From Candidatus Poriferisocius sp. (GTDB lineage: Bacteria > Actinomycetota > Acidimicrobiia > Acidimicrobiales > Bin134), in assembly GCA_965221865.1 (NCBI GenBank), contig OZ244918.1, positions 1,896,696-1,960,695 of the forward strand: 64,000 bases of DNA. The letters run 5' to 3'. A program made the translations under genes and the position numbers. The notes under the pieces were generated by a model. That model was not told the DNA's origin, did not search any database, and saw nothing but the letters and a program-made list of their open reading frames with translations. Positions 44,179 through 64,000 of the stretch are shown here, one piece after another (position 1 is the first letter of the stretch; each line of letters starts with the position of its first letter).

Positions 44179-44180
44179 GC

Positions 44181-44633: not shown

Positions 44634-44636
44634 GTC

Positions 44637-46213: not shown

Positions 46214-46228
46214 TTTGTTACTGAAACA

Positions 46229-47224: not shown

Positions 47225-47229
47225 TTGAG

Positions 47230-47835: not shown

Positions 47836-47899
47836 AGCTGCTTGGGGTTTAGGGGCTTTTGCTGAGGGTTGTTTTGCAGTGAGCCACTGTTGGGTTTTG

Positions 47900-48232
47900 T
47901 CATACTAGAGTTTCTAACAGGATTGTCATACCAACAAAAAACACGCCCACAAACAAGGTGAGTCCAATTCCTAAAAGCGAAACTATTGCCAGCAGTGCAA
48001 TTCCAGCCCTTAGCCTTTCCCACCAGTGCAAACGTGTATCGGATCCGTAAATAGCCCGGTAGGAATTAAAAACATCTCTTTCGTTCCTAGCATTACGCCA
48101 CGAACGCCAGCGGTTTTTTATCCATTGGCTAATGCCACTATTGCTGAGGTCTGTATTAGTATCGCCTGTGTTAGCGCTGCCTGCGCTAGTATCATTGCGG
48201 CTAGTAAAACGAATGCGTAACCAGTTCAACAC
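47900..48232 (-). CDS. hypothetical small membrane protein
   Basis: 110-aa ORF with a C-terminal hydrophobic segment (IALLAIVSLLGIGLTLFVGVFFVGMTILL). No family recognised. Confidence 0.3.
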   Translation of the reverse strand: MLNWLRIRFTSRNDTSAGSANTGDTNTDLSNSGISQWIKNRWRSWRNARNERDVFNSYRAIYGSDTRLHWWERLRAGIALLAIVSLLGIGLTLFVGVFFVGMTILLETLV

Positions 48233-48290
48233 AGAGGCTTCTAGGGTAGCCCCTCCGCCTGCAGAAGGCTTGCCTACGTCTGTAAATCAG

Positions 48291-49349: not shown

Positions 49350-49378
49350 GGGGCGCTAGGGGCTAACCTCAAGGTAGT

Positions 49379-52351
49379 ATGCGCAACCCTCGTGATGTGT
49401 TTAGGTCTCGGCAATCGTCTCGTCCGCGGTTCTCCCGACGATTTAAGATTATTGCAGCTCTTATTGTTGCTGTCGTGTTGGTGGGCGCTCTCTCGGTAAG
49501 AGGCTTAGCTCGCCTATGGACTGATTACCTGTGGTTTGATTCTTTAGACCAAGGTAGGGTGTGGACTGAGATATTTGCTTACCGCAGTTTGCTGGTTGCT
49601 CTGTTTGTAACCGTCTTTTTCTTGTTGATGTTTTTCAACTTGGTTTTGGCCGAGCGGATTGCCCCGAAGATACGACCCCCCGGTCCCGAAGAAGACTTGC
49701 TTCGCACCTATCACGACATTTTGGGGCATCGTCACCGTTTGGTGAGCCTAGTGTTGGCTTTTTTGATTGCACTGATCGTTGGTGGGAGTGCTGGCGGGGA
49801 ATGGCAAAAAGCCATGCTGTTCTTCAACCACGTGGAGTTTGGTAGGCAAGATCCGCAGTTTGGTTACGACATAGGCTTCTATGTTTTTCAGCTTCCGTTT
49901 ATTCAGTTCTTGTTGAGTTGGGTGTTCAGAGCTTTAATTATCGTGACGATTTTTACAGCTATCGCGCACTATGTGCTCGGTGGTATCCGCTTTCAAACGT
50001 CACCTCAGCGAGTAACGCCACAAGTGAAGGTGCATCTCTCGGTTTTGTTAGCGATGATTGCTTTAGTTAGGGCAGTAGGGTATTGGTTTGATCGCTTCAG
50101 CCTTAATTTTTCTTCACGAGGCCCGGTAGATGGAGCCACATATACCGATGTAAACGCGCAGCTTCCAGCTTTGAACCTTTTGATTTTGATATCAGTGCTC
50201 TCCGCAGTGCTGTTGATTATCAACATTTGGCAGCGGGGTTGGGTATTGCCGGTTACCGCCGTTGGTTTGTGGATGATCGTGGCTCTTGTTATGGGGGTTA
50301 TCTACCCAGCGATTATTCAGCGTTTTCGTGCAGAGCCGCAGGAGTCCCAAAACGAGGCGGTGTATATCGAACGAAATATTGCAGAAACTAGGTTTGCTTT
50401 GGGACTTGACAACGTAATCACACGAGAGTTCAACCCTGATACTCAGATCACTGCAGCAGAGCTAACTGCCAGCGATAGCGTGCGTAATATTCGGCTTTTA
50501 GACCCAGATATTGTGCCTAACGCATTTCAGGTGGAGCAGTCAGAACGCACTTTTTATACTTTCAACGATGAGGTGGATGTAGATCGTTACGAGATCAATG
50601 GTGAGACCACCGAGGTGGTTATAGGTGCGCGTCAGCTAAATGTGGCGGACATCCCCCAGCAATCTTGGGAAGGGCGCCATGTGCAATACACTCACGGCTA
50701 TGGGGTGGCTGTAGCACCAGTTAATGAGGTAACAGTTCAGGGTTCACCTAACTTTGTGGTGGGGGATGTGCCAGTGGCTGCGGATGAGGGTTTTGAGCTA
50801 ACCCAGCCGCAGCTTTATATCGGTGAGAACCTAAGCGGCTACGCCATAGTTGGGGCAACTATCCCCGAAGTGGATTACACCGAAGCTAATGAGACGGTGC
50901 CATTTACATATGACGGTGAAGATGGTGTGGGTATAGGGGGTTTCTGGCGGCAAGCAGCTTTTGCCTTGCGTTTTGGAGATATCAATCCTCTCATATCTAA
51001 TTTGGTAGATAGTGACTCGCGGATCGTCTTTAATCGCGATCTTCGCACCCGGGTAGAAACTTTGGCACCATTCCTAGAGTTTGATGCCGATCCATACCCA
51101 GTAGTTTCTGATGGGCGGGTGTTCTATATTGCTGATGCCTACACCACCTCTAACCGGTATCCCTACGGGCAGGTGCCAGATGTGCGGGATTTAAGCGATG
51201 AAAGCGGTCTTAAGAAGAATTTCAACTATGTTCGTAATTCGGTTAAAGCTGTGGTAGATGCTTTTGATGGAACCACAACTTTTTATGTGATTGATGCGCA
51301 AGATCCCATCATTCAGGCTTGGCGTAAGGTGTTTCCAAACTTGTTTGTGGACTTTTCGGAAATGCCAGCCAACCTTCAAAATCATTTACGATATCCCGAG
51401 GATTTATTCCGAGTGCAGACCACAATGTGGGCGCGCTATTTTATTGATGATCCAGAAACCTTTTATGCCAACTCGGTTACGTGGGCTGTAGCGCAAGACC
51501 CGGGGACTCGTATTACTGCTCGCAATTTGATAGACGAGTTTGCTGATGCGCTAGCTGCTGACAGCGTTGCCCCTGCTGCTGCTACCCGGCAGCTGGAGTT
51601 GAGGATTAGGCCGTTCTATCAGCTTTTGCAGTTGCCTGAAGAGGATGATTTAGATTTTGTGATTTTTAGGACGTTTGTGCCTGTGTCGGGTGCCGGCGAT
51701 GATGAGGATGAGCGTAAGGAGTTGACGGCGTTTATCGTTGCTAAGAGCGATATTGATGAGTATGGCGAGTTGGTTGTTTATACAGTGCCTGACACCAATA
51801 TTCCAGGGCCTAGCATTGTGGACGCTAAGATTCAGGCTGATACAGAGATTGCGGATGCTTTTACGCAGCTAAATCAGCAGGGTTCTACCGTGTTGCAAGG
51901 GAACTTGCTGATGATTCCGGTAGGTGACTCTTTGTTGTTTGTGCGCCCTGTTTATGTGCAGGCCACTGGCGACACCGAATTGCCGCAGGTTAAGCAGGTG
52001 ATTGTGGGGCTTGGTAATGAGGATGATTTCTTGTTGCGGATTCGTCCAACTTTGGATGAGGCTTTGGCAGCGCTTTCGGATGCCACCGGTTCGTTTTTGG
52101 GAGTTCCTGTTGAGCCGGTTGATCCTCCTGCAACTGCTGACGGTGGGTCTAGCTCAGAGCCTACGCCAACGCCATCGGTGTCTGATGGGGGGCTTGTAGA
52201 TGCGGTGCCTATGGACAGTGATACCCGTATGGCTTTATCTGAGTTGATTGCTGAGTTGCGCGATACTCAGGAGTCCATAGATGAAGACCGTCGCAAGCTA
52301 GACGGTTTGATCGGGCAATTGGAATCTTTGCTAGATAACTCTGAGGGTTAA
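49379..52351 (+). CDS. UPF0182-family large membrane protein
   Basis: 990 aa with an N-terminal multi-TM region and a large extracytoplasmic domain. Follows the PDZ/Lon-like gene, as I recall for actinobacterial UPF0182 genes. Confidence 0.75.
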   Translation: MRNPRDVFRSRQSSRPRFSRRFKIIAALIVAVVLVGALSVRGLARLWTDYLWFDSLDQGRVWTEIFAYRSLLVALFVTVFFLLMFFNLVLAERIAPKIRPPGPEEDLLRTYHDILGHRHRLVSLVLAFLIALIVGGSAGGEWQKAMLFFNHVEFGRQDPQFGYDIGFYVFQLPFIQFLLSWVFRALIIVTIFTAIAHYVLGGIRFQTSPQRVTPQVKVHLSVLLAMIALVRAVGYWFDRFSLNFSSRGPVDGATYTDVNAQLPALNLLILISVLSAVLLIINIWQRGWVLPVTAVGLWMIVALVMGVIYPAIIQRFRAEPQESQNEAVYIERNIAETRFALGLDNVITREFNPDTQITAAELTASDSVRNIRLLDPDIVPNAFQVEQSERTFYTFNDEVDVDRYEINGETTEVVIGARQLNVADIPQQSWEGRHVQYTHGYGVAVAPVNEVTVQGSPNFVVGDVPVAADEGFELTQPQLYIGENLSGYAIVGATIPEVDYTEANETVPFTYDGEDGVGIGGFWRQAAFALRFGDINPLISNLVDSDSRIVFNRDLRTRVETLAPFLEFDADPYPVVSDGRVFYIADAYTTSNRYPYGQVPDVRDLSDESGLKKNFNYVRNSVKAVVDAFDGTTTFYVIDAQDPIIQAWRKVFPNLFVDFSEMPANLQNHLRYPEDLFRVQTTMWARYFIDDPETFYANSVTWAVAQDPGTRITARNLIDEFADALAADSVAPAAATRQLELRIRPFYQLLQLPEEDDLDFVIFRTFVPVSGAGDDEDERKELTAFIVAKSDIDEYGELVVYTVPDTNIPGPSIVDAKIQADTEIADAFTQLNQQGSTVLQGNLLMIPVGDSLLFVRPVYVQATGDTELPQVKQVIVGLGNEDDFLLRIRPTLDEALAALSDATGSFLGVPVEPVDPPATADGGSSSEPTPTPSVSDGGLVDAVPMDSDTRMALSELIAELRDTQESIDEDRRKLDGLIGQLESLLDNSEG

Positions 52352-52374
52352 TTTTCATAGTTTTTCTAAGAGCG

Positions 52375-52400
52375 GAAACCTTTTGGCTGCCTAAGGTTTC
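52375..52400 (+). repeat. leader hairpin motif, copy 0 (GAAACCTT-ttggctgcct-AAGGTTTC)
   Basis: Perfect 8-bp stem, 24 nt after the UPF0182 stop. The same motif precedes each protease gene. Confidence 0.8.
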
Positions 52401-52434
52401 GTTATGGGTTGGCAACTGTTGAGTTTGGGGTAGA

Positions 52435-53043
52435 ATGATGTGTATGAAGGTTGTTGGTAAGCGTATGTGTTTGACTGATTGGGGTCGTCAGTTTGGGTTG
52501 TCTACGCGTGCTTCTTGGCAGATGTATCGGGATGGTCGTTTGCCTGAGGGGTTGGTGGTTGAGAAGGTGGGGAAGTTGTTGTATGTGAGGGTGCCTGATG
52601 ATGAGTTGCCTGCTGATCGGGTGGTGTTGTATGCGTGTGTGTCTTTTTCGGGTCAGGCTTTTGATTTGGTGTGTCAGTCGGAGCGTTTGCAGGTTTTCGC
52701 GCGTAAGCAGGGGTGGTCTGATTTTGAGGTGGTGATGGAGACGGGTTCTGGTTTGAACGGTAAACGCTCGAAGTTGTTGAGGGTGTTGCGTTTGCCGGGG
52801 AGGACTCGGATTGTGGTTGAGCATCGGGAGCGTTTGACGCGTTTTGGGTTTGAGTTGTTGGAGGCTTCGTTGGTGGGTCGTGGTGGTGAGGTTGTGGTGA
52901 TGGATGATGAGGAACTTGAGGATGATCTTGTGAGGGATGTGACTGAGGTGTTGACTTTGTTGTGTGCGCGTTTGTATGGTCGTCGGTCTGCTGCTCGTAG
53001 AGCGCAGAGAGCGTTAGCGGCTGCTGGTGAGGGTGCGTCGTGA
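52435..53043 (+). CDS. IS607-type serine recombinase (possibly inactivated: catalytic-motif Arg replaced by Cys)
   Basis: HTH (MCLTDWGRQFGLSTRASWQMYRDGRL) and a resolvase core, but the motif reads LYACVSFSGQ instead of YARVSSxxQ. ..VVEHRERLTRFG.. is retained. Confidence 0.75.
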   Translation: MMCMKVVGKRMCLTDWGRQFGLSTRASWQMYRDGRLPEGLVVEKVGKLLYVRVPDDELPADRVVLYACVSFSGQAFDLVCQSERLQVFARKQGWSDFEVVMETGSGLNGKRSKLLRVLRLPGRTRIVVEHRERLTRFGFELLEASLVGRGGEVVVMDDEELEDDLVRDVTEVLTLLCARLYGRRSAARRAQRALAAAGEGAS

Positions 53044-54677
53044 CTCGCTGGCGGTCGGAGGATCCGTTTGTGGTGCCTGCCCCGTCGGGTGCGACTGTTC
53101 GTACAAAGGTTCATGCTTTTGGTGATGATGCCAGCGTGTTGAGGCAGGTCAGCGAGTTTTTGGGTTCGTATTTCCGGCAGGATTTGGCTGCCCGCTGCAA
53201 GCTGGGTTTGGGTTTGAAACATGCAGATCGGAATGAACGCAAAAAAGAGTTGACACCGGCGGTGTCGTCGCGTTGGGCGAATCCGATCACTCTTCGTGTG
53301 GGTGATCAGTTCGCTTTAGCGGTTCGTAATATGCAAGCTTCGATTGATCGTTATCGGACAGAGATCAAAAGGATCGAGAAACGTCTTCGAGTGCCGGTCG
53401 GGCAGAAACAGGGTCGTGTGCGAGGGTTCGCGTCTGTGGGTGAACGTTGGCAGAAGCAACGCCGGTTGCAGAGCCTGAAAGCGCGTGAAGCTCAAACATC
53501 TGCTGATCTGCAAGCTGGTCGGGTGTCGGTGTGTAAGGGCGGTAAAGAGCTGGCTAACAACCGTCATCATCTACAAGAATGTGGTCTAACGCTTCAGCAA
53601 TGGCGTGAACAGTGGGATGCTGCTAGAGGGTATTTGACTTGTGACGGGCGCACCGGTGAACCGTACGGCAACGAAATGATTCAGGTGATCCCTACCGCAG
53701 CAGGCTACAAGAACTGTGTGGTGCAGATCCGGTTACCGAAAGGTTTAGCGCATTTATCGAACACCCCAGACAGGAAAGCACCTTTTTACCGGTTAGAAGG
53801 GACCGTTACCTGGAATCATCGAGCGACCGAATGGTTACACCGATGTTTAACTAGTTCAAAGATCTCATACACCTTCTCTTATGATCCTGATAAACAAGCC
53901 TGGTATCTGTCGGCTAGCTGGACGTTCCCTAAACCTTCTGAACCTGCTGAGATACCCACCACCGCGAAAACGGTGGGCATCGATTTGAACTCCGATCATC
54001 TAGCAGCGTTCATCGTGGATGAGCACGGCAACCCAACCGGTCGCCCTCAAACGTTTGAGCTGTTAGAAGAAGGCACCAGCGAGCAACGGCGAGGCAGGCT
54101 ACGAGAATCAGTAGACGCGGCACTGAAATGGGCGGTCTCCCAAGGCGCACAAGTGGTCGCTACCGAGAAACTCGATTTCAGTCGCAGTAAAGCTTTGGGC
54201 AAACAGATATACCGACGCGGGCAAGCAGGAAAAACCACTCGCCGTAAAGTCGCTGGACTACCCACAGCACAAGTTTTTGAGGCTGTAGCAGCTAACGCCA
54301 AAAAACATGGGATCACTCACGTAGCAGTCGATCCTGCGTACACCAGCAAATGGGGAACCAGATACTGGAAACCCGCACTCAACAAATCACGCCGACAACA
54401 AAGTAGTGGTCATCACGCTGCTGCTGTCGTAATCGGCAGAAGAAGTCAGGGCCACGCGGCCAAGCGAAAGAACCCAGAACCAGCAACGACCAGAGGATCG
54501 TCAAGGACAATCTCGGTTCCAGCCCAACCACGAACAACTGACATGCCCCCTACAAACAGAAAAGGACAACAGCGAGCCGCCCCCGGCAACGACCTGTTAG
54601 CCAAACCTGGGACTAGACGGGACAGACGCTCAAGGTCGTTCGGAGCGTCGACAATAGAACAACCTTCTATTGTTTAA
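53040..54677 (+). CDS. TnpB-like RuvC-fold protein lacking the zinc ribbon and the canonical third RuvC motif
   Basis: TVGIDLNSDHLAAF (RuvC I-like), QVVATEKLDF (RuvC II-like), VDPAYTSKWG, then SGHHAAAVVIGRR where D.NAA.NI is expected. There are no CxxC pairs. The basic low-complexity C-terminal about 100 aa are encoded by A+C-rich DNA. Confidence 0.6.
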   Translation: MTRWRSEDPFVVPAPSGATVRTKVHAFGDDASVLRQVSEFLGSYFRQDLAARCKLGLGLKHADRNERKKELTPAVSSRWANPITLRVGDQFALAVRNMQASIDRYRTEIKRIEKRLRVPVGQKQGRVRGFASVGERWQKQRRLQSLKAREAQTSADLQAGRVSVCKGGKELANNRHHLQECGLTLQQWREQWDAARGYLTCDGRTGEPYGNEMIQVIPTAAGYKNCVVQIRLPKGLAHLSNTPDRKAPFYRLEGTVTWNHRATEWLHRCLTSSKISYTFSYDPDKQAWYLSASWTFPKPSEPAEIPTTAKTVGIDLNSDHLAAFIVDEHGNPTGRPQTFELLEEGTSEQRRGRLRESVDAALKWAVSQGAQVVATEKLDFSRSKALGKQIYRRGQAGKTTRRKVAGLPTAQVFEAVAANAKKHGITHVAVDPAYTSKWGTRYWKPALNKSRRQQSSGHHAAAVVIGRRSQGHAAKRKNPEPATTRGSSRTISVPAQPRTTDMPPTNRKGQQRAAPGNDLLAKPGTRRDRRSRSFGASTIEQPSIV

Positions 54678-54688
54678 GGAACGGTTGG

Positions 54689-56026
54689 ATGATTGTTCAA
54701 TATTTCAATATAGGGTTTGCAGGGACATTGCGCGCTGCGCTGCTTTTTGGTGCTGCTCGCTGCCGTGCATGGGTTGTGTTGGTTTGTTTGGCTTTGATGG
54801 TGGTGGGGTGTTCGTCTGCTGAGCGAGTAGCAGTGGAAGAATCTGGTGAGGATTTATTGAAGCCTCCAGAGCAAGTTGAGGATTGGCCGCGTCCACCGTT
54901 TGCGGGTATGTGGGTTAACCATCCCAACAACGTGTACCAAGCTGATGAGAAATGGATTTATGGGACTGTGTCTGTAGAGCCGCCTTGTGTGTATTTGACT
55001 AATGTTACGAATATTATGGCAGATACTTCGGGAGTGTCGTGGGAGGGGCGGCGTTTGGCTTTGTCGCTAATATATCCTGATGTTCGTTTTGATGAGAGCA
55101 CTTACACGTTGTGGAACCCGTTGTGGAGATATGATATTCCGATTTCTCATGGTGATCGGGTTATTGTGGGTTCACACCCGTATGGTGAAACGGTTGGGGG
55201 TAAGGAGCCTGGTGATTTGCATCTTTTTTGGGATGCGTGTGCTGCTCATGCGTATGCTAGACCTGTTGGTCTTTGGACGTCTTTGGAGTGGCTTTGTGTT
55301 AACAGGCCGTCAGGCTGGGTTTGGCATTTAGATAATGAGCTGGTGCGTATGTGTAATGAGGATACGCCTTGGAATCAGCGGGAATTGTTAAAAGAACAGG
55401 GTATCATGGTTGATGTTGAGTCGTCTGATTTAGACCGTGAACCTAGTGAGCCGCCGCCTGAGGTAGAGTTAGCTTGGCCTCCTTTTGTTGATACGTATTT
55501 GTATCATCCTGATTTAGAGTTGGAGTTGTACAAGCTGGTGGGGGTGTTATCGGTTGAGCCAGCACCGCAGAACTACAGTCCAGAGTCGAGGTGTGCATAC
55601 TTATATCCCACAGCTGCTTCGGATCCGCAGGCAGTGTTGTGGGGGGATTCGTGGAAACACACTGGCTCTGATGGTCAGCCGCTTGCTATCAGCTTAGAGC
55701 TACCTTATCCGCAGGTGCGTTTTGATGAGGAAAATCAGGCGCTGTGGAACGGTGACATCGGGCCTATGGTGAATGGAGATCGGGTGATTGTTGATCCTGT
55801 AGCGCTACCTGATTTCAACGACAACGGTTTTGGCAGATATAAACACCACCTTGACACGCTTGGCGGGCTTTGCCGCAAAGCTAACGCCAGTGCCACTGTG
55901 TTAGATATTCAACCTGTTGCACATTACTGCACTAACAACCCGCCGATCAGGCACAGCAGCCAATGCGATTATGCTTTGAACCCCGACACTCAAACCAAGG
56001 ACCGTTTAGTTCTCCCTGAAGGCTAA
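54689..56026 (+). CDS. cassette lipoprotein L1 (two tandem Cys-containing domains, unknown function)
   Basis: Lipobox LALMVVGC|SS. Internal duplication (..VSVEPPCVYL..RRLALSLIYPDVRFDESTYTLWN..GDRVIV.. versus ..LSVEPAP..RCAYL..QPLAISLELPYPQVRFDEENQALWN..GDRVIV..). Paralogs at 57661 and 60726. Confidence 0.6.
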   Translation: MIVQYFNIGFAGTLRAALLFGAARCRAWVVLVCLALMVVGCSSAERVAVEESGEDLLKPPEQVEDWPRPPFAGMWVNHPNNVYQADEKWIYGTVSVEPPCVYLTNVTNIMADTSGVSWEGRRLALSLIYPDVRFDESTYTLWNPLWRYDIPISHGDRVIVGSHPYGETVGGKEPGDLHLFWDACAAHAYARPVGLWTSLEWLCVNRPSGWVWHLDNELVRMCNEDTPWNQRELLKEQGIMVDVESSDLDREPSEPPPEVELAWPPFVDTYLYHPDLELELYKLVGVLSVEPAPQNYSPESRCAYLYPTAASDPQAVLWGDSWKHTGSDGQPLAISLELPYPQVRFDEENQALWNGDIGPMVNGDRVIVDPVALPDFNDNGFGRYKHHLDTLGGLCRKANASATVLDIQPVAHYCTNNPPIRHSSQCDYALNPDTQTKDRLVLPEG

Positions 56027-56100
56027 CCATTTGCTAGTCACCTGCTTGAGGTATTGGTGGCAACAAACTTGTTTGTTTAGTTAATTTTTTTAGGAGTTTG

Positions 56101-56126
56101 GGAACTTTTTGGCTGTGTAAGGTTTC
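56101..56126 (+). repeat. leader hairpin motif, copy 1 (imperfect)
   Basis: GGAACTTT-ttggctgtgt-AAGGTTTC within the conserved about 130-nt leader upstream of P1. Confidence 0.7.
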
Positions 56127-56215
56127 GTTAAAGGGTAGATGTTAGTTGAAGTGCGTGTTTAGTGCTGTGCCCAGCATCCCACCTATACGATATGACCGAT
56201 AAGGAGGAGTGGGTT

Positions 56216-57664
56216 ATGTGCAAGAAGGTTGTGAAGTTTTTAGCAGGTTTTGGGAGAGTTGTTTGTGTGGGTGTTGTGTTGGTTGTTTTTGTGGGGGTGA
56301 CTTCGGCGAGTACGGTGTCTGTAGTTGCTGGTGAAGAGTCGGAGCCGGTTCCTGTGGAGGTTGAGTTTTATGCGTTGGAGTATGCGGTGTCACACGCTGA
56401 GGCTAGTCGTCGGTTGCAGCGTATTGGGGTGATAAAGCAGGTTTTAGCAGAGATCCGCGAAGTTGAGAAGGAAAGATTAGCTGGTTGGGGTATTGATCAC
56501 CGTGACAAGTTTACAGGTTGGGTACTGTTGACCGGTGATAAGTCTGTTAGTGCTGAAGCAACAGTTTTGGCTAACGCTCACAGTGATGTTGAGATCCGCA
56601 GCGGAGCGCAGCATAGTTACGCTGAACTACAAGCCGCGCAGCGTGCATTGTCCGCACAGCTTTTCACAGCTCGTAATTCTAGTACCGGTGCGGTTGGTAA
56701 CACCGGGCAAGAGGATCAGCCGTCTACTAGCACACAGGGTGGGTTTGATGACAACAACATTGGTGTGGCTGAGGTGGTCACGTTCTTGGAGACTGATATG
56801 GCGGGTAATGCCGTTAGTGTTGGTATAGACCCTGGGTTGGCTTCTGAAGTTGGACCATTAGGCACCGTGTCCGAGCTACCTTTTGAGCAAAGCGCAGCCG
56901 TAATAAAAGAAATGCTGCAAAACCACATAGAGGTAGCATACATAATCGCCGATGGTCGCGGGATCGCGCCCGCAACCACTTTCCAAGGTGGCGATGCGAT
57001 GAGTAATTGTACCGCAGGATTTACTGCAAGGCAGGCCAGCACTGGTAATTATGGTATTATCACCGCTGGCCACTGTGGAAATGAATTTCCAGCAGACACT
57101 AAACCGGTGATTATGAGCGGTGTAAGCTTGCCATTTGTTTACGGCTGGTTGAGCCCCACCGCTGATGCTCAGTTTCATAAAATCCCAGTGCCTAGCAGCG
57201 GCACCCATCATGTTTCAGACGATTATGTGTGCCGCAATCTCGAACCTGCTATAGCTCTTCTTGATCTTACATGTGATTTAGTTGGAACCGAGGCACGCGC
57301 TAACATGCTTGGTGATTTCGTTTGCCATGCGGGTAGACGCAGTGGGGTATCTTGCGGCACGGTAATGACCATTAACCACCAACTCAAGTGGAGTGGAAAG
57401 CCATGTCGCAACTCAAGTGGTCAAGATGTTGGATGTGAACATGTATTCGTAAGAGTACATGGCACAAATCTGAGAGGTTGCGAAGGTGACAGCGGCGGAC
57501 CTTTCTACAGTAACAGAATAGCTTATGGGATCTTGGCGGGAGGTATCCATGTCAAAGATTGTAAATCTGGAAACAAATGGATTACGTTCTCTGCGATTCG
57601 TGAGGTTGAAGCTTTTTTGGGGGTGCAAGTGTTAACCGAGCCTGTTACTTTGAGAGCCTCTTGA
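56216..57664 (+). CDS. secreted S1 (chymotrypsin-fold, streptogrisin/alpha-lytic type) serine protease precursor P1, the only intact copy
   Basis: ATG 56216 lies 8 nt after AAGGAGG. Signal peptide MCKKVVKFLAGFGRVVCVGVVLVVFVGVTSAS, an about 230-aa pro-region, and catalytic His ITAGHCG and Ser GCEGDSGGPF. Confidence 0.85.
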   Translation: MCKKVVKFLAGFGRVVCVGVVLVVFVGVTSASTVSVVAGEESEPVPVEVEFYALEYAVSHAEASRRLQRIGVIKQVLAEIREVEKERLAGWGIDHRDKFTGWVLLTGDKSVSAEATVLANAHSDVEIRSGAQHSYAELQAAQRALSAQLFTARNSSTGAVGNTGQEDQPSTSTQGGFDDNNIGVAEVVTFLETDMAGNAVSVGIDPGLASEVGPLGTVSELPFEQSAAVIKEMLQNHIEVAYIIADGRGIAPATTFQGGDAMSNCTAGFTARQASTGNYGIITAGHCGNEFPADTKPVIMSGVSLPFVYGWLSPTADAQFHKIPVPSSGTHHVSDDYVCRNLEPAIALLDLTCDLVGTEARANMLGDFVCHAGRRSGVSCGTVMTINHQLKWSGKPCRNSSGQDVGCEHVFVRVHGTNLRGCEGDSGGPFYSNRIAYGILAGGIHVKDCKSGNKWITFSAIREVEAFLGVQVLTEPVTLRAS

Positions 57665-59052
57665 GGGTTGTGGGAGATTCTAAATGGCTAGGCTGTATGG
57701 CTATCGCAACAAGGTTAGCGGCATTGAGTACTTTGCTTTTGTCTGGTGATGCTCGATGCCGTGTAGGTGGTGTGCGGTGTGTGGTTGTGTTGGTTTGTTT
57801 GGCTTTGATGGTGGTGGGGTGTTCGTCGGCTGAGCGAGTAGCAGTGGAAGAATCTGGTGAGGATTTATTGAAGCCTTCAGAGCAAGTTGAGGATTGGCCG
57901 CGTCCACCTTTTGCGGGTATGTGGGTTGACTATCCTGAACGTTCAAGTCCGCTGGAAGAAACTTGGATTTATGCGACTGTGTCTGTAGAGCCGCCTTGTG
58001 TGTATTTGACTAATGTTGCAGAAGGTGGCAGAGCATCGTCTACAGATAGGTCGCCGGTGTCGTGGCAGGGGCGGCGTTTGGCGTTGTCGCTTATATATCC
58101 TGATGTGCGTTTTGATGAGGACACTTACACGTTGTGGAACCCTTGGGGAGAGGATGACATTCCGATTTCGCATGGTGATCGGGTTATTGTTTCCTCAGAT
58201 CCGCTTGATGAAATGATTGGGGGTAAGGAGCCCGGTGATTTGTATCTTTTTTGGGATGCGTGTGCTGCTCATGCGTATGCTAGACCTGGGGGTCTTTGGT
58301 CATCTTTGGAGTGGCTTTGTGTTAACAGGCCGTCAAACTGGGTTTGGCATTTAGGTAATGAGCTGGTGCGTATGTGTAATGAGGACACGCCTTGGAATCA
58401 GCGGGAATTGTTAAAAGAACAGGGTATCGTGGTCGATGTTGAGTCGTCTGATTTAGACCGTGAACACGGTGAGCCGCCGCTTGTTGCTGATTTGGTTCCG
58501 CCAACGTTTTTTGGTGATATGCATTTGTATCATCCTGATTTAGAGTTGGAGTTGTACAAGCTGGTGGGGGTGTTATCGGTTGAGCCAGCACCGCCGAGCT
58601 ACAGTCCAGAGTGGAGGTGTGCATACTTATATCCCACAGCTGCTTCGGATCCGCAGGCAGTGTTGTGGGGGGATTCGTGGAAACATGTTGACTCTGATGG
58701 TCAGCCGCTTGCTATCAGCTTAGAGCTACCTTATCCGCAGGTGCGTTTTGATGAGGAAAATCAGGCGCTGTGGAACGGTGACATCGGGTCTATGGTGAAT
58801 GGTGATCGGGTGATTGTTGATCCTGTAGCGCTACCTGATTTCAACGACAACGGTTTTGGCAGATATAAACACCACCTTGACACGCTTGGCGGGCTTTGCA
58901 GCAAAGCTAACGCCAGTGCCACTGTGTTAGATATTCAACCTGTTGCACATTATTGCACTAACAACCCGCCGATCAGGCACAGCAGCCAATGCGAGTATGC
59001 CATGAACTCTGACACTCAAACCAAGGACCGTTTAGTTCTCCCTGAAGGCTAA
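57661..59052 (+). CDS. cassette lipoprotein L2
   Basis: TTG 57661 overlaps the P1 stop (TGA 57662-57664). The alternative start is ATG 57697. Lipobox LALMVVGC|SS. Same two-domain architecture as L1. Confidence 0.6.
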   Translation: MRVVGDSKWLGCMAIATRLAALSTLLLSGDARCRVGGVRCVVVLVCLALMVVGCSSAERVAVEESGEDLLKPSEQVEDWPRPPFAGMWVDYPERSSPLEETWIYATVSVEPPCVYLTNVAEGGRASSTDRSPVSWQGRRLALSLIYPDVRFDEDTYTLWNPWGEDDIPISHGDRVIVSSDPLDEMIGGKEPGDLYLFWDACAAHAYARPGGLWSSLEWLCVNRPSNWVWHLGNELVRMCNEDTPWNQRELLKEQGIVVDVESSDLDREHGEPPLVADLVPPTFFGDMHLYHPDLELELYKLVGVLSVEPAPPSYSPEWRCAYLYPTAASDPQAVLWGDSWKHVDSDGQPLAISLELPYPQVRFDEENQALWNGDIGSMVNGDRVIVDPVALPDFNDNGFGRYKHHLDTLGGLCSKANASATVLDIQPVAHYCTNNPPIRHSSQCEYAMNSDTQTKDRLVLPEG

Positions 59053-59126
59053 TCATTTGCTAGTCACCTGTTTGAGGTATTGGTGTCGATAAATTTGTTT
59101 GTTTAGTTAATTTTTTTAGGAGTTTG

Positions 59127-59152
59127 GGAACCTTTTAGCCACCTAAGGTTTC
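59127..59152 (+). repeat. leader hairpin motif, copy 2
   Basis: GGAACCTT-ttagccacct-AAGGTTTC (one G.T pair). Confidence 0.75.
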
Positions 59153-59241
59153 GTTAAAGGGTAGATGTTAGTTGAAGTGCGTGTTTAGTGCTGTGCCCAG
59201 CATCCCACCTATACGATATGACCGATAAGGAGGAGTGGGTT

Positions 59242-60705
59242 ATGTGCAAGAAGGTTGTGAAGTTTTTAGCAGGTTTTGGGAGAGTTGTTTGTGTGGGTGT
59301 TGTGTTGGTTGTTTTTGTGGGGGTGACTTCGGCGAGTACGGTGTCTGTAGTTGCTGGTGAAGAGTCGGAGCCGGTTCCTGTGGAGGTTGAGTTTTATGCG
59401 TTGGAGTATGCGGTGTCACACGCTGAGGCTAGTCGTCGGTTGCAGCGTATTGGGGTGATAAAGCAGGTTTTAGCAGAGATCCGCGGAGTTGAGAAGGAAA
59501 GATTAGCGGGTTGGGGTATTGATCACCGTGACAAGTTTACTGGTTGGGTGCTGTTGACCGGTGATAAGTCTGTTAGTGCTGAAGCGACAGTTTTGGCTAA
59601 TGCTCACAGTGATGTTGAGATCCGCAGCGGGGCGCAGCATAGTTACGCTGAACTGCAGGCCGCGCAGCGTGCTTTTTCTGCACAGCTTTTCGCAGCTAGT
59701 AACCCTGGTGTTGGAGCGTTGGGTAATACAGGGCAAGAGGATCAGCCTGCTACCGGAACACAGGGTGATGGTAACAATATAGGTGTGGGTGTGGCTGAGG
59801 TGGTCACGTTCTTGGCAACTGATATGGCGGGTAATGCTGTTAGTGTTGGTATAGACCCTGGGTTGGCTTCTGAAGTTGGACCATTAGGCACAGTGTCGGA
59901 GCTAACTTTTGATTAGAGCGCAGCCGTAATAAAAGAAATGCTGCAAACCCATATTGACGTGGCATACACAATCGCCGACGGGCGTAATATCACTTTAGAT
60001 GCAACTTTTCGAGGTGGCGATCCGATGAGTACTTGCACCGCTGGATTTACTGCACGGCAGGTCACTGTCGGTTCGTATGGTCAAATCACGATTGGTGATT
60101 ACGGGGTAATTACCGCTGGTCACTGTGGAAGTGAACTTCCTACAGACACTAAACCGGTGATTATGAGCGGTGTAAACTTGCCTTTTGTTTACGGCTGGTT
60201 GAGCCCCACCGCTGATGCTCAGTTTCATAAAATCCCAGTGCCTAGCAGCGGCACCCATCATGTTTCAGACGATTATTACTGTGGACAGACTTATTCCAGG
60301 TTCAATCCATACTGCGATGTATTTAGAACAGAGGCTCGTGCTAACATGCAAGGCGATTACGTTTGCCACACCGGTAAAAACAGCGGTATATCCTGTGGTG
60401 AGGTAACAAGGATCGATTATCGGCCAAAGTACGCCTCTTGCTTTACTTCGAGAGGAGTAGGGGTTGACTGCGAGAATGTGTTCGTGACAGTACATGGCAT
60501 AAATCTGAGAGGTTGCGGGGGAGATAGCGGTGGGCCTTATTACAGGGGAGGTATAGCTTATGGAATACATTCGGGGCGTGTTGCTGCTAGTGACGATGAT
60601 TGTGGCATAACAGGTAGAATTACCATATTCTCTGCGATTCGTGAGGTTGAAGCTTTTTTGGGTGTGCAAGTGTTAACCGAGCCTGTCACTTTGAGAGCCT
60701 CTTGA
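59242..60705 (+). pseudogene. S1 protease cassette P2, interrupted by an in-frame TAG at the pro-region/catalytic-domain junction
   Basis: ORFs 59188..59916 and 59938..60705 are in the same frame. TAG 59914-59916 replaces the CAA found in P1 (P1 GAG CAA AGC versus P2 GAT TAG AGC). The catalytic domain is otherwise intact (TAGHCG, GCGGDSGGPY) but divergent from P1. Confidence 0.75.
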
Positions 60706-60725
60706 GGGTTGTGGGGAGGCTCTAA

Positions 60726-62120
60726 GTGATTGGTTTAGATCGATATTTCAATAAGAAGTTTGCAGTGATATCACGCTTATTGTCGCTGGTTTATGGTGCA
60801 TGGCGTGGTGTATGTGGTGTGCGGTGTGTGGTTGTGTTGGTTTGTTTGGCTTTAATGGCGGTGGGGTGTTCGTCGGCTGAGCGAGTAAACATTGACTCTG
60901 AACCAAGTAAAAATCCAGTGCCAACATTAGAGGGTGGAGCGAGTGGTGGTAGTGGTCAGATGGGTGTGGGGGATTGGCCGCGTCCACCGTTTGCGGGTAT
61001 GCGGTTTATTCATCCCGAAGACATGTTCACAGATGATGAGAAATGGATTTATGCGACTGTGTCTATAGAGCCGCCTTGTGTGTATTTAACTAATGTCACG
61101 GATATTATGCCAGATATTTCGAGGGTGTCGTGGGAGGGGCGGCGTTTGGCGTTGTCGTTGTTGTATCCTGATATTCGTTTTGATGAGAGCACTCACACGT
61201 TGCGGAATCCGCGGTGGGGGAAATACGATATTCCGATTTCTCATGGTGACCGGGTTATTGTTGGGTCACGTTCGTACGATGAAACGGTTGGTGGCAAAGA
61301 GCCCGGTGATTTGCATCTTTTTTGGGATGCGTGTGCTGCTCATGCGTTTGCTCAACCTGTTGGTCTTTGGACGTCTTTGGAGTGGCTTTGTGTGAACAGG
61401 CCGTCAGGCTGGGTTTGGCATTTAGGTAATGAGCTGGTGCGTATGTGTAATGAGGATACGCCTTGGAATCAGCGGGAGTTGTTAGAGGAGCAGGGGATTG
61501 TTGTTGATGTTGAGTCGTTTGATTTAGACCGTGAACCCGGTGAGCTGCCGCCTGAGGTAGAGTTAGCTTGGCCTCCTTTTTATGATATGTATTTGTATCA
61601 TCCTGATTTAGAGTTGGAGTTGTACAAGCTGGTGGGGGTGTTATCGGTTGAGCCAGCACCGCAGAACTACAGTTCAGAGTCGAGGTGTGCATATTTATAT
61701 CCCACAGTTGCTTCGTCACCAAAGTCAGTGTTGTGGGGGGATTCTTGGAAACATGTTGGCTCTGATGGGCAGCCGCTTGCTATCAGCTTAGAGCTACCTT
61801 ATCCTCAAGTGCGTTTTGATGAGGAAAATCAGGCGCTGTGGAACGGTGACATCGGGCCTATGGTGAATGGAGATCGGGTGATTGTTGATCCTGTAGCGCT
61901 ACCTGATTTCAACGACAACGGTTTTGGCAGATATAAACACCACCTTGACACGCTTGGCGGGTTTTGCAGCAAAGCTAACGCCAGTGCCACTGTGTTAGAT
62001 ATTAAACCTGTTGCACATTACTGCACGAACAACCCGCCGATCAGGCATCGTCCCCAATGTGATTATGCTTTGAACCCTGACACTCAAACGCAAAATCAGC
62101 TAACTCTCCCAGAAAGCTAA
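60726..62120 (+). CDS. cassette lipoprotein L3
   Basis: GTG start, lipobox LALMAVGC|SS. Same architecture as L1 and L2, with a divergent region right after the lipobox. Confidence 0.6.
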   Translation: MIGLDRYFNKKFAVISRLLSLVYGAWRGVCGVRCVVVLVCLALMAVGCSSAERVNIDSEPSKNPVPTLEGGASGGSGQMGVGDWPRPPFAGMRFIHPEDMFTDDEKWIYATVSIEPPCVYLTNVTDIMPDISRVSWEGRRLALSLLYPDIRFDESTHTLRNPRWGKYDIPISHGDRVIVGSRSYDETVGGKEPGDLHLFWDACAAHAFAQPVGLWTSLEWLCVNRPSGWVWHLGNELVRMCNEDTPWNQRELLEEQGIVVDVESFDLDREPGELPPEVELAWPPFYDMYLYHPDLELELYKLVGVLSVEPAPQNYSSESRCAYLYPTVASSPKSVLWGDSWKHVGSDGQPLAISLELPYPQVRFDEENQALWNGDIGPMVNGDRVIVDPVALPDFNDNGFGRYKHHLDTLGGFCSKANASATVLDIKPVAHYCTNNPPIRHRPQCDYALNPDTQTQNQLTLPES

Positions 62121-62214
62121 CCTCACCGCTAGCCATTTTTGAGGTAGGTGTGTGTGCGAATCTGTTTATGCGAGGCACGGTCTTCTAAATATTTAGTTTT
62201 TTCGTAGGAGTTTG

Positions 62215-62240
62215 GGAACCTTTTAGCCACCTAAGGTTTC
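62215..62240 (+). repeat. leader hairpin motif, copy 3
   Basis: GGAACCTT-ttagccacct-AAGGTTTC, identical to copy 2. Confidence 0.75.
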
Positions 62241-62329
62241 GTTAAAGGGTAGATGTTAGTTGAAGTGCGTGTTTAGTGCTGTGCCCAGCATCCCACCTAT
62301 ACGATATGACCGATAAGGAGGAGTGGGTT

Positions 62330-63514
62330 ATGTGTAAGAAGGTTGTGAAGTTTTTAGCAGGTTTTGGGAGAGTTGTTTGTGTGGGTGTTGTGTTGGTTGT
62401 TTTTGTGGGGGTGACTTCGGCGAGTACGGTGTCTGTAGTTGCTGGTGAAGAGTCGGAGCCGGTTCCTGTGGAGGTTGAGTTTTATGCGTTGGAGTATGCG
62501 GTGTCACACGCTGAGGCTAGTCGTCGGTTGCAGCGTATTGGGGTGATAAAGCAGGTTTTAGCAGAGATCCGCGGAGTTGAGAAGGAAAGATTAGCTGGTT
62601 GGGGTATTGATCACCGTGACAAGTTTACTGGTTGGGTACTGTTGACCGGTGATAAGTCTGTTAGTGCTGAAGCGACAGTTTTGGCTAATGCTCACAGTGA
62701 TGTTGAGATCCGCAGCGGAGCGCAGCATAGTTACGCTGAGCTACAGGCTGCGCAGCGTGCTTTTTCTGCACAGCTTTTCGCAGCTCGTAATTCTAGTACC
62801 GGTGCGGTTGGTAACACCGGGCAAGAGGATCAGCCGTCTACTAGCACACAGGGTGGGTTTGATGACAACAACATTGGTGTGGCTGAGGTGGTCACGTTTT
62901 TGGGGATTGATATGGCGGGTAATGCTGTTAGTGTTGGTATAGACCCTGGGTTGGCTTCTGAAGTTGGACCATTAGGCACAGTGTCGGAGCTAACTTTTGA
63001 TTAGAGCGCAGCCGTAATAAAAGAAATGCTGCAAACCCATATTGACGTGGCATACACAATCGCCGACGGGCGTAATATCACTTTAGATGCAACTTTTCGA
63101 GGTGGCGATCCGATGAGTACTTGCACCGCTGGATTTACTGCACGGCAGGTCACTGTCGGTTCGTATGGTTAAATCACGATTGGTGATTACGGGGTAATTA
63201 CCGCTGGTCACTGTGGAAGTGAACTTCCTACAGACACTAAACCGGTGATTATGAGCGGTGTAAACTTGCCTTTTGTTTACGGCTGGTTGAGCCCCACCGC
63301 TGATGCTCAGTTTCATAAAATCCCAGTGCCTAGCAGCGGCACTCACCATGTGTCAGACAATTATGTGTACCGCAATCTCGAACCTGCTATAGCTCTTCTT
63401 GATCTTACATGTGATTTAGTTGGAACCGAGGCACGCGCTAACATGCTTGGTGATTTCGTTTGCCATGCGGGTAGACGCAGTGGGGTATCTTGCGGCACGG
63501 TAAAATGGTGTTAG
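62330..63514 (+). pseudogene. S1 protease cassette P3: same in-frame TAG, an extra TAA, and a 3' deletion removing the catalytic Ser; mosaic of P1- and P2-type sequence
   Basis: TAG 63002-63004 (as in P2). TAA 63170-63172 (CAA in P2). After ..GRRSGVSCGTV the sequence jumps to the gene end (about 300 nt missing relative to P1). Confidence 0.8.
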
Positions 63515-63521
63515 GAGTCTC

Positions 63522-63767
63522 TTGATGGCTGGTTTGATTCGGCATGTCTACACGGATTTTAAAAGGACACCATTGTGCTCCTTGCTGTTGTCGAGGGATG
63601 AGTGGCGTGGTTTAGGTTTTGTGCGGTGCGTGGTTGTGTTGGTTTGTTTGGCTTTAATGGCGGTGGGGTGTTCGTCGGCTGAGCGAGCAGCAGTGGAAGA
63701 ATCTGGTGAGGATTGGCAGAGTTTTCCGCTGGCAGGTATGTGGATTAAGCCGTTCCTTAAACAATAG
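63522..63767 (+). pseudogene. cassette lipoprotein L4, truncated after about 75 codons by IS copy 2
   Basis: ..VVLVCLALMAVGCSSAERAAVEESGEDW..AGMW matches L1-L3 until about 63748, then runs into the inverted IS end. Confidence 0.65.
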
Positions 63768-64000
63768 AAGGTTGTTCTATTGTCGACGCTCCGAACGATC
63801 TTGAGCGTCTGTCCCGTCTAGTCCCAGGTTTGGCTAACAGGTTGTTGCCGGGGGCGGCTCGCTGTTGTCCTTTTCTGTTTGTAGGGGGCATGTCAGTTGT
63901 TCGTGGTTGGGCTGGAACCGAGATTGTCCTTGACGATCCTCTGGTCGTTGCTGGTTCTGGGTTCTTTCGCTTGGCCGCGTGGCCCTGACTTCTTCTGCCG
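63750..64000 (-). mobile_element. IS607-like element, copy 2 (inverted; only the tnpB-side terminal about 250 nt lie in the window)
   Basis: Hand alignment: the reverse complement of 54434-54684 equals 63750-64000 with 2 mismatches (63799 and 63850). Confidence 0.85.

What the first reader, a model, noticed from the sequence alone, without database searches (positions are those of the whole stretch)
54689..63767. Tandem protease-lipoprotein (P-L) cassette array: candidate polymorphic secreted-protease / cognate-lipoprotein system with one expressed and several silent copies
Seen in sequence: an about 3.0-kb unit is repeated about 3.3 times. Each unit starts with a conserved about 130-nt leader containing a hairpin and a strong RBS. 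Next comes P, which has a signal peptide, an alpha-lytic/streptogrisin-like pro-region and an S1 catalytic domain (TAGHCG...GDSGGP). Then comes L, whose start overlaps or abuts the P stop (TTG 57661 / TGA 57662-57664) and which has the lipobox VVGC|SS. The leader, the pro-region, the last about 25 aa of P and the second L domain are nearly identical between units. The P catalytic core diverges in patches (..DDYVCRNLEPAIALLDLTCDLVG.. versus ..DDYYCGQTYSRFNPYCDVFR..). So does the first L domain (WVNHPNNVYQADEK / WVDYPERSSPLEET / RFIHPEDMFTDDEK; NVTNIMADTSGVSWEG / NVAEGGRASSTDRSPVSWQG). Variation is therefore co-localised in the two partners. Only P1-L2 is an intact operon. Inference: L may be a cognate inhibitor, immunity or maturation partner of the secreted protease. 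The array may serve as a reservoir for recombinational diversification, with an expressed locus plus silent cassettes. I do not know of a described system with this layout.
Basis: partly seen in the sequence, partly recalled or inferred. Interest (0 to 1): 0.75.

Follow-up and report, generated by a model that had tools for sequence, protein, structure and literature searches.

The report
Tandem secreted-protease / lipoprotein-partner gene array
A sponge-symbiont actinobacterium carries a tandem array of a secreted alpha-lytic-type serine protease gene and an uncharacterised lipoprotein gene; the two are always linked, and the lipoprotein most likely acts as the protease's membrane-anchored inhibitor, a role not yet tested.

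Summary
The repeat array is real. A unit of about 3.03-3.09 kb (leader, protease P, lipoprotein L) occurs three times, with an extra L at the front.

One sits in front of L1. The other truncates L4, so the IS copies, not the array itself, set the finding's coordinates.

P is an S1E (alpha-lytic/streptogrisin) protease with a signal peptide, a pro-region of about 230 aa and an intact His-Asp-Ser triad. L is a lipobox protein with two beta-barrel modules. It belongs to a rare family with no Pfam or PDB match, seen almost only in sponge-associated Acidimicrobiia.

In about 40 related loci, every close P is followed by an L. L often occurs without P or beside a decayed P (11/29 P disrupted against 2/42 L). 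In a sister clade the partner lipoprotein also carries a copy of the protease's pro-region.

The conserved/variable pattern comes from recent gene conversion over old paralogous divergence, not hypervariation. Orthologous copies in a sister strain are 97-99% identical.

Best reading: a protease plus cognate inhibitor or self-protection lipoprotein, analogous to the potempin/KLIKK pairs. The "expressed locus plus silent cassettes" idea is not supported.

The parts
52361..52404 (+). 44-nt leader-like hairpin motif (GAAACCTT..AAGGTTTC) directly after the UPF0182 gene; the same motif follows each L stop
   Evidence: Repeat family D10. A motif search finds it only at 52375, 56101, 59127 and 62215.
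52413..54684 (+). IS607-family insertion sequence, copy 1 (tnpA 52435-53043, tnpB-like 53040-54677), inserted in the first codons of the L1 reading frame as annotated in the relative
   Evidence: Absent from the syntenic locus L024, whose flanks are 98.85% identical. NCBIfam IS607 transposase scores 138 bits against a cutoff of 110, with a weaker TnpB match. Junctions read.
54689..56026 (+). L1, intact lipoprotein gene with no P upstream (the relative also has none)
56027..56215 (+). Leader 1: hairpin at 56101-56126 and RBS AAGGAGGAG at 56201-56209
56216..57664 (+). P1, the only intact protease gene (482 aa from the RBS-supported ATG): signal peptide, pro-region of about 230 aa, S1E catalytic domain with H286 (57071), D317 (57164) and S426 (57491); the divergent type-A C-terminal barrel lies at about 57218-57586
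   Evidence: Pfam Trypsin. PDB sequence match to 2pfe. Invariant triad in alignment A2. AF2 pLDDT 84, with Foldseek top hits TFPA, L5/L1, NAPase, SGPB and alpha-lytic protease.
57661..59052 (+). L2, intact lipoprotein (longest ORF; true start uncertain; lipobox Cys at 57829-57831); divergent first module up to about 58225, homogenised second module
59053..59241 (+). Leader 2
59242..60705 (+). P2, type-B protease gene inactivated by one in-frame TAG at 59914-59916 (GAT TAG where the orthologue has GAG CAG); otherwise full length
60726..62120 (+). L3, intact lipoprotein
62121..62329 (+). Leader 3
62330..63514 (+). P3 pseudogene: TAG at 63002, TAA at 63170, and a deletion of about 300 nt (junction near 63508) that removes the catalytic Ser region
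63522..63749 (+). L4', only the 5' 76 codons of a fourth L copy (signal peptide and lipobox), cut by the IS
63750..64000 (-). IS607-family element, copy 2, inverted; only its tnpB-side end lies inside the window
   Evidence: 99.2% reverse-complement identity to 54434-54684.

Best explanation
The locus is a tandemly duplicated two-gene module. P is a Sec-secreted serine protease of the alpha-lytic/streptogrisin (S1E) type that folds with its own pro-region. L is a lipoprotein anchored on the outer face of the membrane, built from two beta-barrel modules.

I infer that L binds the protease encoded just upstream of it and inhibits it at the cell surface. That would protect the producer's envelope from its own protease and from proteases of close relatives, as potempins, AprI/Inh and staphostatins do for their linked proteases.

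Shown:
- the anatomy of the array;
- the S1E identity of P;
- the lipobox and the new family status of L;
- strict P-to-L linkage across genomes;
- preferential decay of P while L stays intact;
- partner lipoproteins in a sister clade that carry a copy of the protease's pro-region;
- gene conversion that homogenises the block from the 3' half of L through the leader to the 5' half of P, while the block from the 3' half of P to the 5' half of L keeps old, purified divergence (at least two protease types, A and B, each with its own downstream L type).

Inferred: physical binding, inhibition, and cognate specificity. The array looks like an ordinary birth-death and gene-conversion family, now bracketed by two IS607 copies. 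It does not look like a programmed cassette-switching device.
For: - P-L adjacency holds in 16 of 23 L-centred genome loci. In an HMM survey, every close P (at least 40% identity, about 25 genes including the three pairs in L025, plus L026, L030 and L031) is followed by an L-like gene. More distant S1E proteases (L032-L039) have no L.
- L occurs alone or beside P remnants (L003, L004, L005, L018-L021, L027, L028). Counting by hand, 11 of 29 P copies are disrupted against 2 of 42 L copies (Fisher p = 0.001).
- The window and the relative L024 each keep exactly one intact P, but a different copy (P1 versus P2). The L copies stay intact.
- In L026 and L030, which are only about 30% identical to each other, and in P0202, the partner is a lipoprotein with two L modules followed by an alpha-lytic-type pro-region and no catalytic domain (P profile about 45-245, E 1e-48 to 1e-54). 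From my own knowledge, such pro-regions are tight-binding inhibitors and foldases of their protease.
- The L model shows beta-barrel modules. Its most variable, indel-rich loop (residues 111-120) is disordered. The only fold resemblance is a weak one to OB-fold barrels. Potempins are OB-fold or 8-stranded beta-barrel lipoprotein inhibitors encoded next to their proteases (PMC9890683).
- The closest structures to P include the Lysobacter L1 and L5 enzymes.
Against: - No binding or inhibition was tested or modelled.
- L has no detectable homology to any known inhibitor.
- The linkage asymmetry (P never without L, L often without P) fits equally well if L is the protease's dedicated substrate.
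- L is large (about 400 aa mature, two modules) compared with typical inhibitors of 100-130 aa.
- The gene order is the reverse of the potempin pairs.
- The co-variation of P and L types is confounded by physical linkage and rests on orthologous pairs from only two strains.
- Some P 'pseudogenes' come from metagenome assemblies and could reflect population heterogeneity.
Confidence: 0.5

Rival explanations
1. L is the functional surface protein, for example a host- or matrix-binding lipoprotein of the sponge symbiont. P is its dedicated processing or shedding protease, and one working P serves several L paralogues in trans.
For: L copies are kept intact while P copies decay, and L-only loci and L-L-L arrays exist. 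The first L module evolves faster (dN/dS 0.4-0.6, locally about 1), as an exposed surface domain would. P never occurs without L.
Against: Fusing a protease pro-region to L modules fits a binder, inhibitor or foldase better than a substrate. S1E proteases are normally broad extracellular enzymes rather than dedicated maturases (own knowledge). No conserved cleavage motif was identified.
Confidence: 0.2
2. L is a membrane-anchored docking factor or trans-acting folding helper. It retains or activates P at the cell surface rather than inhibiting it.
For: The partner lipoproteins in L026, L030 and P0202 carry a complete pro-region, and from my own knowledge the pro-region is the folding catalyst of alpha-lytic-type proteases. 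Linkage is tight and the P-L spacer is short, about 100 nt.
Against: P already has its own full pro-region. The L copies in this window have no pro-region-like part. If L only served P, L would be expected to decay together with P, but it does not.
Confidence: 0.15
3. This is the first reader's cassette model: one expressed P-L locus plus silent donor cassettes that diversify the expressed pair by programmed segmental gene conversion, as in antigenic variation.
For: Gene conversion clearly occurs. Identity is mosaic: the 5' part of P3 resembles P2 while its core resembles P1. The identical GAT TAG lesion is shared by P2 and P3. The second module of wL1 is 90% identical to its neighbours in the window but only 67% identical to its orthologue rL1. 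A different P copy is intact in the two strains.
Against: All units have full leaders, RBS and signal peptides, so there are no promoterless partial cassettes. L1 and L3 are intact genes. Orthologues in the two strains are 97-99% identical, including the variable blocks. The variable blocks have saturated dS and dN/dS of about 0.2-0.6, which means old divergence rather than ongoing diversification. The leader is not conserved outside the closest relative.
Confidence: 0.07

Closest known systems
Potempin / KLIKK-peptidase pairs of Tannerella forsythia (PMC9890683)
   Same: Several paralogous secreted peptidase genes each sit beside a gene for a membrane-anchored lipoprotein made of a small beta-barrel (OB-like or 8-stranded). 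In Tannerella these lipoproteins specifically inhibit the linked peptidase and protect the cell surface. Here the linkage, the lipobox and the beta-barrel modules are present.
   Different: There is no sequence or significant fold homology. The gene order is reversed, with L downstream of P. L has two modules and about 400 aa against 98-132 aa for potempins. The host is a monoderm actinobacterium and the protease is S1E. Inhibition is untested.
Alpha-lytic protease / streptogrisin family (MEROPS S1E: alpha-lytic protease, SGPB, TFPA, NAPase, Lysobacter L1/L5)
   Same: The catalytic domain of P has the same fold (TM 0.75-0.86 normalised to the target), the same triad and the GDSGGP motif. It also has a signal peptide and a long N-terminal pro-region.
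   Different: The pro-region is longer, about 230 aa, and the Pfam pro-domain model does not detect it. As far as I know, no characterised S1E member has an obligatory downstream lipoprotein partner.
Operon-encoded inhibitors of secreted bacterial proteases: AprI/Inh (serralysins), staphostatins (staphopains), Spi (SpeB propeptide homologue). This entry rests on my own knowledge, not on a test here.
   Same: A small beta-barrel or propeptide-like inhibitor is encoded next to the protease and protects the producer. The Spi case parallels the L plus pro-region fusions seen in L026, L030 and P0202.
   Different: The protease classes differ, the inhibitors are soluble periplasmic or cytoplasmic proteins, and there are no tandem arrays.
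Polymorphic toxin / immunity loci with orphan immunity genes
   Same: The conserved 5' part and divergent 3' (C-terminal) part of the upstream gene are followed by a variable downstream partner. Partner genes persist without the upstream gene. The genes are arranged in tandem and recombination exchanges segments.
   Different: There is no dedicated secretion or delivery domain (plain Sec signal). The divergent part is half of a single catalytic fold, not a swapped toxin domain. Toxicity and immunity are untested.

Membership tests
S1E alpha-lytic/streptogrisin serine peptidases | Chymotrypsin fold with a His-Asp-Ser triad and the GDSGG motif | tested here: met
   H286, D317 and S426 are invariant in 34 homologues. 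Pfam Trypsin scores above its cutoff. AF2 pLDDT is 84.
S1E alpha-lytic/streptogrisin serine peptidases | Closest structural relatives lie within the bacterial S1E subfamily | tested here: met
   The top 23 Foldseek hits are TFPA, L5, NAPase, L1, SGPB, alpha-lytic protease, SGPA and similar enzymes, with E 1e-10 to 1e-14. phmmer hits 2pfe.
S1E alpha-lytic/streptogrisin serine peptidases | N-terminal signal peptide plus an alpha-lytic-type pro-region | tested here: inconclusive
   A hydrophobic signal and a well-folded alpha/beta region of about 230 aa with two similar halves precede the catalytic domain. No Pfam pro-domain hit was found, and no pro-region chain appeared among the listed Foldseek hits.
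Bacterial lipoproteins | Signal peptide ending in a lipobox [LVI][ASTVI][GAS]C | tested here: met
   L1-L4 carry LALM(V/A)VGC|SS. Most homologues conserve an equivalent Cys. 37 of 73 distant representatives have a lipobox-like motif.
Potempin-type lipoprotein peptidase inhibitors | Sequence or fold homology to potempins | tested here: not met
   No PDB sequence match was found, even with the family profile. Foldseek gave only weak OB-fold-like hits with E at least 0.07 and no potempin entry among the 50 listed hits.
Potempin-type lipoprotein peptidase inhibitors | Lipoprotein gene adjacent to and co-oriented with the gene of its target peptidase | tested here: met
   The order is P then L, the reverse of the potempin pairs.
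Potempin-type lipoprotein peptidase inhibitors | Specific, tight inhibition of the linked peptidase | not testable with these tools
   This needs biochemistry or complex prediction. The structure tool returns no interface information.
Polymorphic toxin-immunity systems | Variable C-terminal effector part with a matching variable downstream partner, and orphan partners | tested here: inconclusive
   The pattern is present descriptively. It is confounded by linkage and gene-conversion tract geometry. There is no toxicity data and no delivery domain.
Antigenic-variation cassette systems (pilE/pilS, vlsE type) | A single expression site plus promoterless, partial silent cassettes | tested here: not met
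   Every unit has a complete leader, RBS, start codon and signal peptide. The dead P copies are full-length genes with point lesions.
Antigenic-variation cassette systems (pilE/pilS, vlsE type) | Rapid sequence turnover of the variable segments between close strains | tested here: not met
   wP2/rP2, wL2/rL2 and wL3/rL3 are 97-99% identical, including the variable blocks. Only two strains were compared.
IS607 family insertion sequences | Serine-recombinase transposase followed by a TnpB-like gene | tested here: met
   NF033518 scores 138 bits against a cutoff of 110. The TnpB subfamily match is below its cutoff (43 bits). Pfam finds Resolvase. The element is absent from the orthologous site in L024.

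The most novel reading that the evidence does not exclude
The P-L modules are a contact-independent weapon-and-shield system among sponge-symbiont Acidimicrobiia. P would be a secreted lytic protease aimed at the envelopes of competing relatives, and its specificity-determining C-terminal barrel would come in several types. Each L would be the matching surface immunity inhibitor. Strains would hoard L variants as orphan immunities while repeatedly losing or swapping the costly protease. Gene conversion would move the block from the 3' half of P to the 5' half of L as a single specificity cassette. This would be a new immunity-protein family and a Sec-dependent form of polymorphic toxin-immunity logic in an uncultivated symbiont lineage.
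Probability: 0.2. Interest if true: 0.75.

Novelty: new variant of a known kind. Interest (0 to 1): 0.5.

Why it matters
If L inhibits its linked protease, it defines a new family of protein inhibitors for S1E serine proteases. It would also be the first potempin-like protease/lipoprotein-inhibitor pairing in Actinomycetota, found in uncultivated sponge symbionts whose surface biology is almost unknown.

The module gives concrete protein pairs that can be tested: type-A and type-B proteases against L1, L2 and L3. The array is also a clean natural example of gene conversion, pseudogenisation and IS insertion acting on a two-gene module.

If L is not an inhibitor, the strict linkage still marks an uncharacterised functional partnership.

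Tried and rejected
- L has no hit in Pfam, NCBIfam or PADLOC.
- L finds nothing in the PDB by sequence, either as a single sequence or as a family profile. A marginal beta-galactosidase hit (E 1e-4) for the single sequence disappeared when the profile was used.
- Foldseek on the L model gave no significant match.
- hhalign of the L family against the P family shows that L is not a diverged pro-region.
- An Rfam scan of 52-64 kb found nothing credible.
- Promoter and terminator scans were at or below the shuffled expectation.
- The leader and hairpin are conserved only in the closest relative, so a covariation test was not possible.
- Tandem Repeats Finder reported nothing because the period exceeds its limit.
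- I considered recoding (readthrough, selenocysteine or pyrrolysine) for the in-frame stops in P. I rejected it because the stops sit at different positions and are mostly TAA.
- A conserved third gene next to P-L looked possible from ORF clustering. It proved to be antisense ORFs and ordinary syntenic neighbours, a luciferase-like oxidoreductase and ribosomal protein S1.
- A mirror-tree or co-variation test was not run, because linkage would produce the same signal.

Full report
**1. Observation**

The repeat is real. Direct-repeat families place homologous points at 56085, 59111 and 62199, with spacing of 3026 and 3088 nt. The leader plus the 5' part of P is 97-99% identical between units. 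The 3' half of L is 94-96% identical. The P catalytic region drops to 65%, and the first L module to 61%, between some units.

- P1 is intact.
- P2 is interrupted by one in-frame TAG at 59914.
- P3 carries the same TAG (63002), a TAA (63170) and a deletion of about 300 nt that removes the catalytic serine region.
- L1, L2 and L3 are full length.
- L4 stops after 76 codons.

A strong RBS (AAGGAGGAG, 6 nt spacer) precedes an ATG 54 nt inside the longest P ORF. The real P1 is therefore 56216-57664, 482 aa. The TTG start of L2 that overlaps the P stop is only the longest ORF. Conservation among homologues starts near the signal peptide, about 100 nt after the P stop.

**2.

A 2272-nt IS607-family element lies at 52413-54684. 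Its transposase matches NF033518 at 138 bits against a cutoff of 110, and a TnpB-like gene follows it. It sits between the UPF0182 gene and L1.

Bases 63750-64000 are a 99.2% identical inverted copy of its right end, and this copy truncates L4. The IS copies therefore fix both ends of the finding's coordinates.

A sister strain (locus L024, 2.75-Mb contig) has flanks 98.85% identical to window 44344-52412. It carries the same array, UPF0182-L-P-L-P-L-P-L, with no IS and with a complete fourth L. The array starts with an L that has no P upstream in both strains.

**3. Identity of P**

- Pfam Trypsin scores above its cutoff.
- The only PDB sequence hit is Thermobifida fusca protease A.
- The His-Asp-Ser triad (H286, D317, S426) and the cysteines are invariant across 34 homologues.
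- The AF2 model is confident (pLDDT 84). Its catalytic domain is closest to TFPA, Lysobacter L5 and L1, NAPase, SGPB and alpha-lytic protease, with TM 0.75-0.86 on the target.
- A hydrophobic signal peptide and a well-folded alpha/beta region of about 230 aa, made of two similar halves, precede the catalytic domain.

P is an S1E (alpha-lytic/streptogrisin-type) secreted protease. The Pfam pro-domain model does not detect the pro-region, so I treat its homology to the alpha-lytic pro-region as likely but not shown.

**4. Identity of L**

L has a lipobox (LALMVVGC|SS). It has two copies of a module with the signature IEPPCVY...R.LALSL.YP.VRFDE.T.TLWN...GDRV, each followed by a Cys-rich helical tail.

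- It has no Pfam, NCBIfam, PADLOC or PDB match, even with the family profile.
- It has no significant Foldseek match. The best hits are weak OB-fold barrels with E at least 0.07.
- The family is rare. There are 53 clusters at 90% identity, and where a source is named it is sponge-associated Acidimicrobiia such as Candidatus Poriferisocius. Among 1.84 billion representative proteins, only 73 clusters contain the module.
- L is not related to the P pro-region.

**5. Linkage**

In 23 genome loci found through L, 16 have P immediately upstream with a spacer of about 100 nt. One locus is P-L-P-L.

A profile survey of about 40 loci gave these results.
- Every close P (at least 40% identity) is followed by an L-like lipoprotein gene. 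This includes a more distant clade with three tandem P-L pairs interrupted by a transposase (L025).
- More remote S1E proteases (L032-L039) have no L.
- L also occurs alone (L004, L005, L018-L020, L027, L029) or next to P remnants (L003, L021, L028).

Counting copies by hand, 11 of 29 P genes are disrupted against 2 of 42 L genes (Fisher p = 0.001). Four P genes in other genomes carry single in-frame TAA codons at different positions. These are ordinary nonsense lesions, not recoding.

The window keeps P1 intact. The sister strain keeps P2 intact, and its P1 and P3 are broken by a 74-nt insertion and by two 1-nt deletions.

**6. The most informative new observation**

In L026 and L030, the gene downstream of P encodes a lipoprotein with two L modules followed by a full copy of the protease's pro-region and no catalytic domain (P profile about 45-243, E 1e-48 to 1e-53). 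These two partner proteins are only about 30% identical to each other, so this is a conserved architecture and not a recent deletion. P0202 is a third example.

From my own knowledge, pro-regions of this protease family are tight-binding inhibitors and folding catalysts of the mature enzyme. The streptococcal inhibitor Spi is a propeptide homologue encoded next to speB. This architecture ties the partner lipoprotein physically to the protease.

**7. Conserved versus variable pattern**

- Sliding-window dN and dS show that the 'conserved' stretches have dS of about 0-0.05, which indicates recent gene conversion.
- The variable stretches have high dS as well. The first L module has dS 0.4-0.8 and dN/dS of about 0.4-0.6, locally near 1. 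The C-terminal barrel of P has saturated dS and dN of 0.27-0.43.
- The homogenised tract runs from the 3' half of L, through the leader, into the 5' half of P. The unconverted tract runs from the 3' half of P, across the P-L junction, into the 5' half of L. The 'co-localised variation in both partners' is therefore one contiguous block.
- There are two old protease types: A (P1, P3, rP1) and B (P2, rP2, rP3-like). Each has its own downstream L type.
- Orthologous copies in the two strains are 97-99% identical, including the variable parts.
- Recombination is nevertheless active. P3 is P2-like in its 5' part and P1-like in its core. P2 and P3 share the same two-base lesion. The second module of wL1 is 90% identical to its neighbours but only 67% identical to rL1.

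**8. Mechanism**

The best-supported reading (confidence about 0.5) is a secreted protease with a cognate membrane-anchored inhibitor or self-protection lipoprotein.

Support:
- strict P-to-L linkage;
- L surviving without P;
- the pro-region fusions;
- a beta-barrel lipoprotein architecture whose most variable, indel-rich loop is disordered.

The closest described system is the potempin/KLIKK-peptidase network of Tannerella forsythia. There, lipoprotein beta-barrel inhibitors (OB-fold or 8-stranded) are encoded beside each secreted peptidase and protect the outer membrane (PMC9890683). L is not a homologue of potempins, so this is an analogy of function, not family membership.

Rivals:
- L is the real surface effector and P its processing protease (0.2).
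- L is a docking or folding helper (0.15).
It fails on cassette anatomy and on stability between strains.

**9. Novelty and score**

The kind of system, a protease with a genetically linked lipoprotein inhibitor, is known. The protein family, the S1E context, the actinobacterial sponge-symbiont host and the two-module and pro-region-fusion architectures are new, and nothing has been tested experimentally. I rate it a new variant of a known kind, with interest 0.5.

The most novel reading still open is a Sec-dependent polymorphic lytic-protease/immunity system with orphan immunities that mediates competition among symbiont strains (probability about 0.2, interest 0.75 if true).

Noticed in passing
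window 52413-54684 (+) and 63750-64000 (-): Two near-identical IS607-family copies (serine recombinase plus TnpB-like gene) bracket the array in inverted orientation. The sister strain has neither. Both junctions end in GG, and GGTTGG is repeated at the two ends of copy 1. The pair could invert or mobilise the 9-kb array.
   Followed up: partly
window 52375, 56101, 59127, 62215: A 26-nt hairpin motif (G[AG]AAC[CT]TTTT..TAAGGTTTC) follows the UPF0182 stop and every L stop, and occurs nowhere else in the window. It lacks a T-tract and is conserved only in the closest relative. Its function (processing site, attenuator or recombination junction) is unknown.
   Followed up: partly
L026 9457-11211; L030 5229-7001; protein P0202: These lipoproteins combine two L modules with a full alpha-lytic-type pro-region and no catalytic domain. 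Each of the two with known context (L026, L030) lies directly downstream of a complete or nonsense-interrupted P gene.
   Followed up: partly
L002 8659, L003 9333, L007 8590, L030 4790; window 59914, 63002, 63170: P genes in several genomes are interrupted by single in-frame stop codons (mostly TAA) at different positions and otherwise stay in frame. This is an unusually high share of nonsense lesions relative to frameshifts.
   Followed up: partly
L024 18691-18921: The sister strain's array ends with another leader followed by a 131-nt fragment that resembles the 5' end of L1. The 'leader then L 5' end' junction therefore appears at both ends of the array, which hints at how the array was built.
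   Followed up: no
L024 8062-9411 compared with window 54689-56026: The two L1 orthologues are 90% identical in module 1 but only 67% in module 2, while the flanking chromosome is 98.85% identical. One lineage has replaced the 3' half of L1 by gene conversion.
   Followed up: yes
window 44000-46000: G+C dips to 0.43 over two minus-strand ORFs (44181-44633 and 44637-45467). In the 98.8%-identical relative, the minus-strand genes at the start of locus L024, which aligns from window 44344 onward, hit HNH nuclease and N6/N4 DNA methyltransferase families. This is possibly a small restriction-modification or mobile island.
   Followed up: no
window 52000-64000, minus strand: Many long antisense ORFs (60-180 aa) run through the array. 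They go with the strongly G+T-rich coding strand (GC skew about +0.25, AT skew about -0.15) and are most likely not genes. The same artefact produced a false 'conserved neighbour' in the ORF clustering.
   Followed up: yes
protein P0218; locus L027 55-3171: The L module also occurs fused to a glutaminyl cyclase domain (PF05096, E 8e-85). It also occurs as three tandem L-like genes with no protease gene on a 3.5-kb contig.
   Followed up: no
L025 4946-14497: A different Acidimicrobiia genome from the same sample has its own three-unit P-L array (P about 44% identical to P1), with an rve-type transposase between units 2 and 3. Tandem amplification and IS insertion recur in this module.
   Followed up: partly
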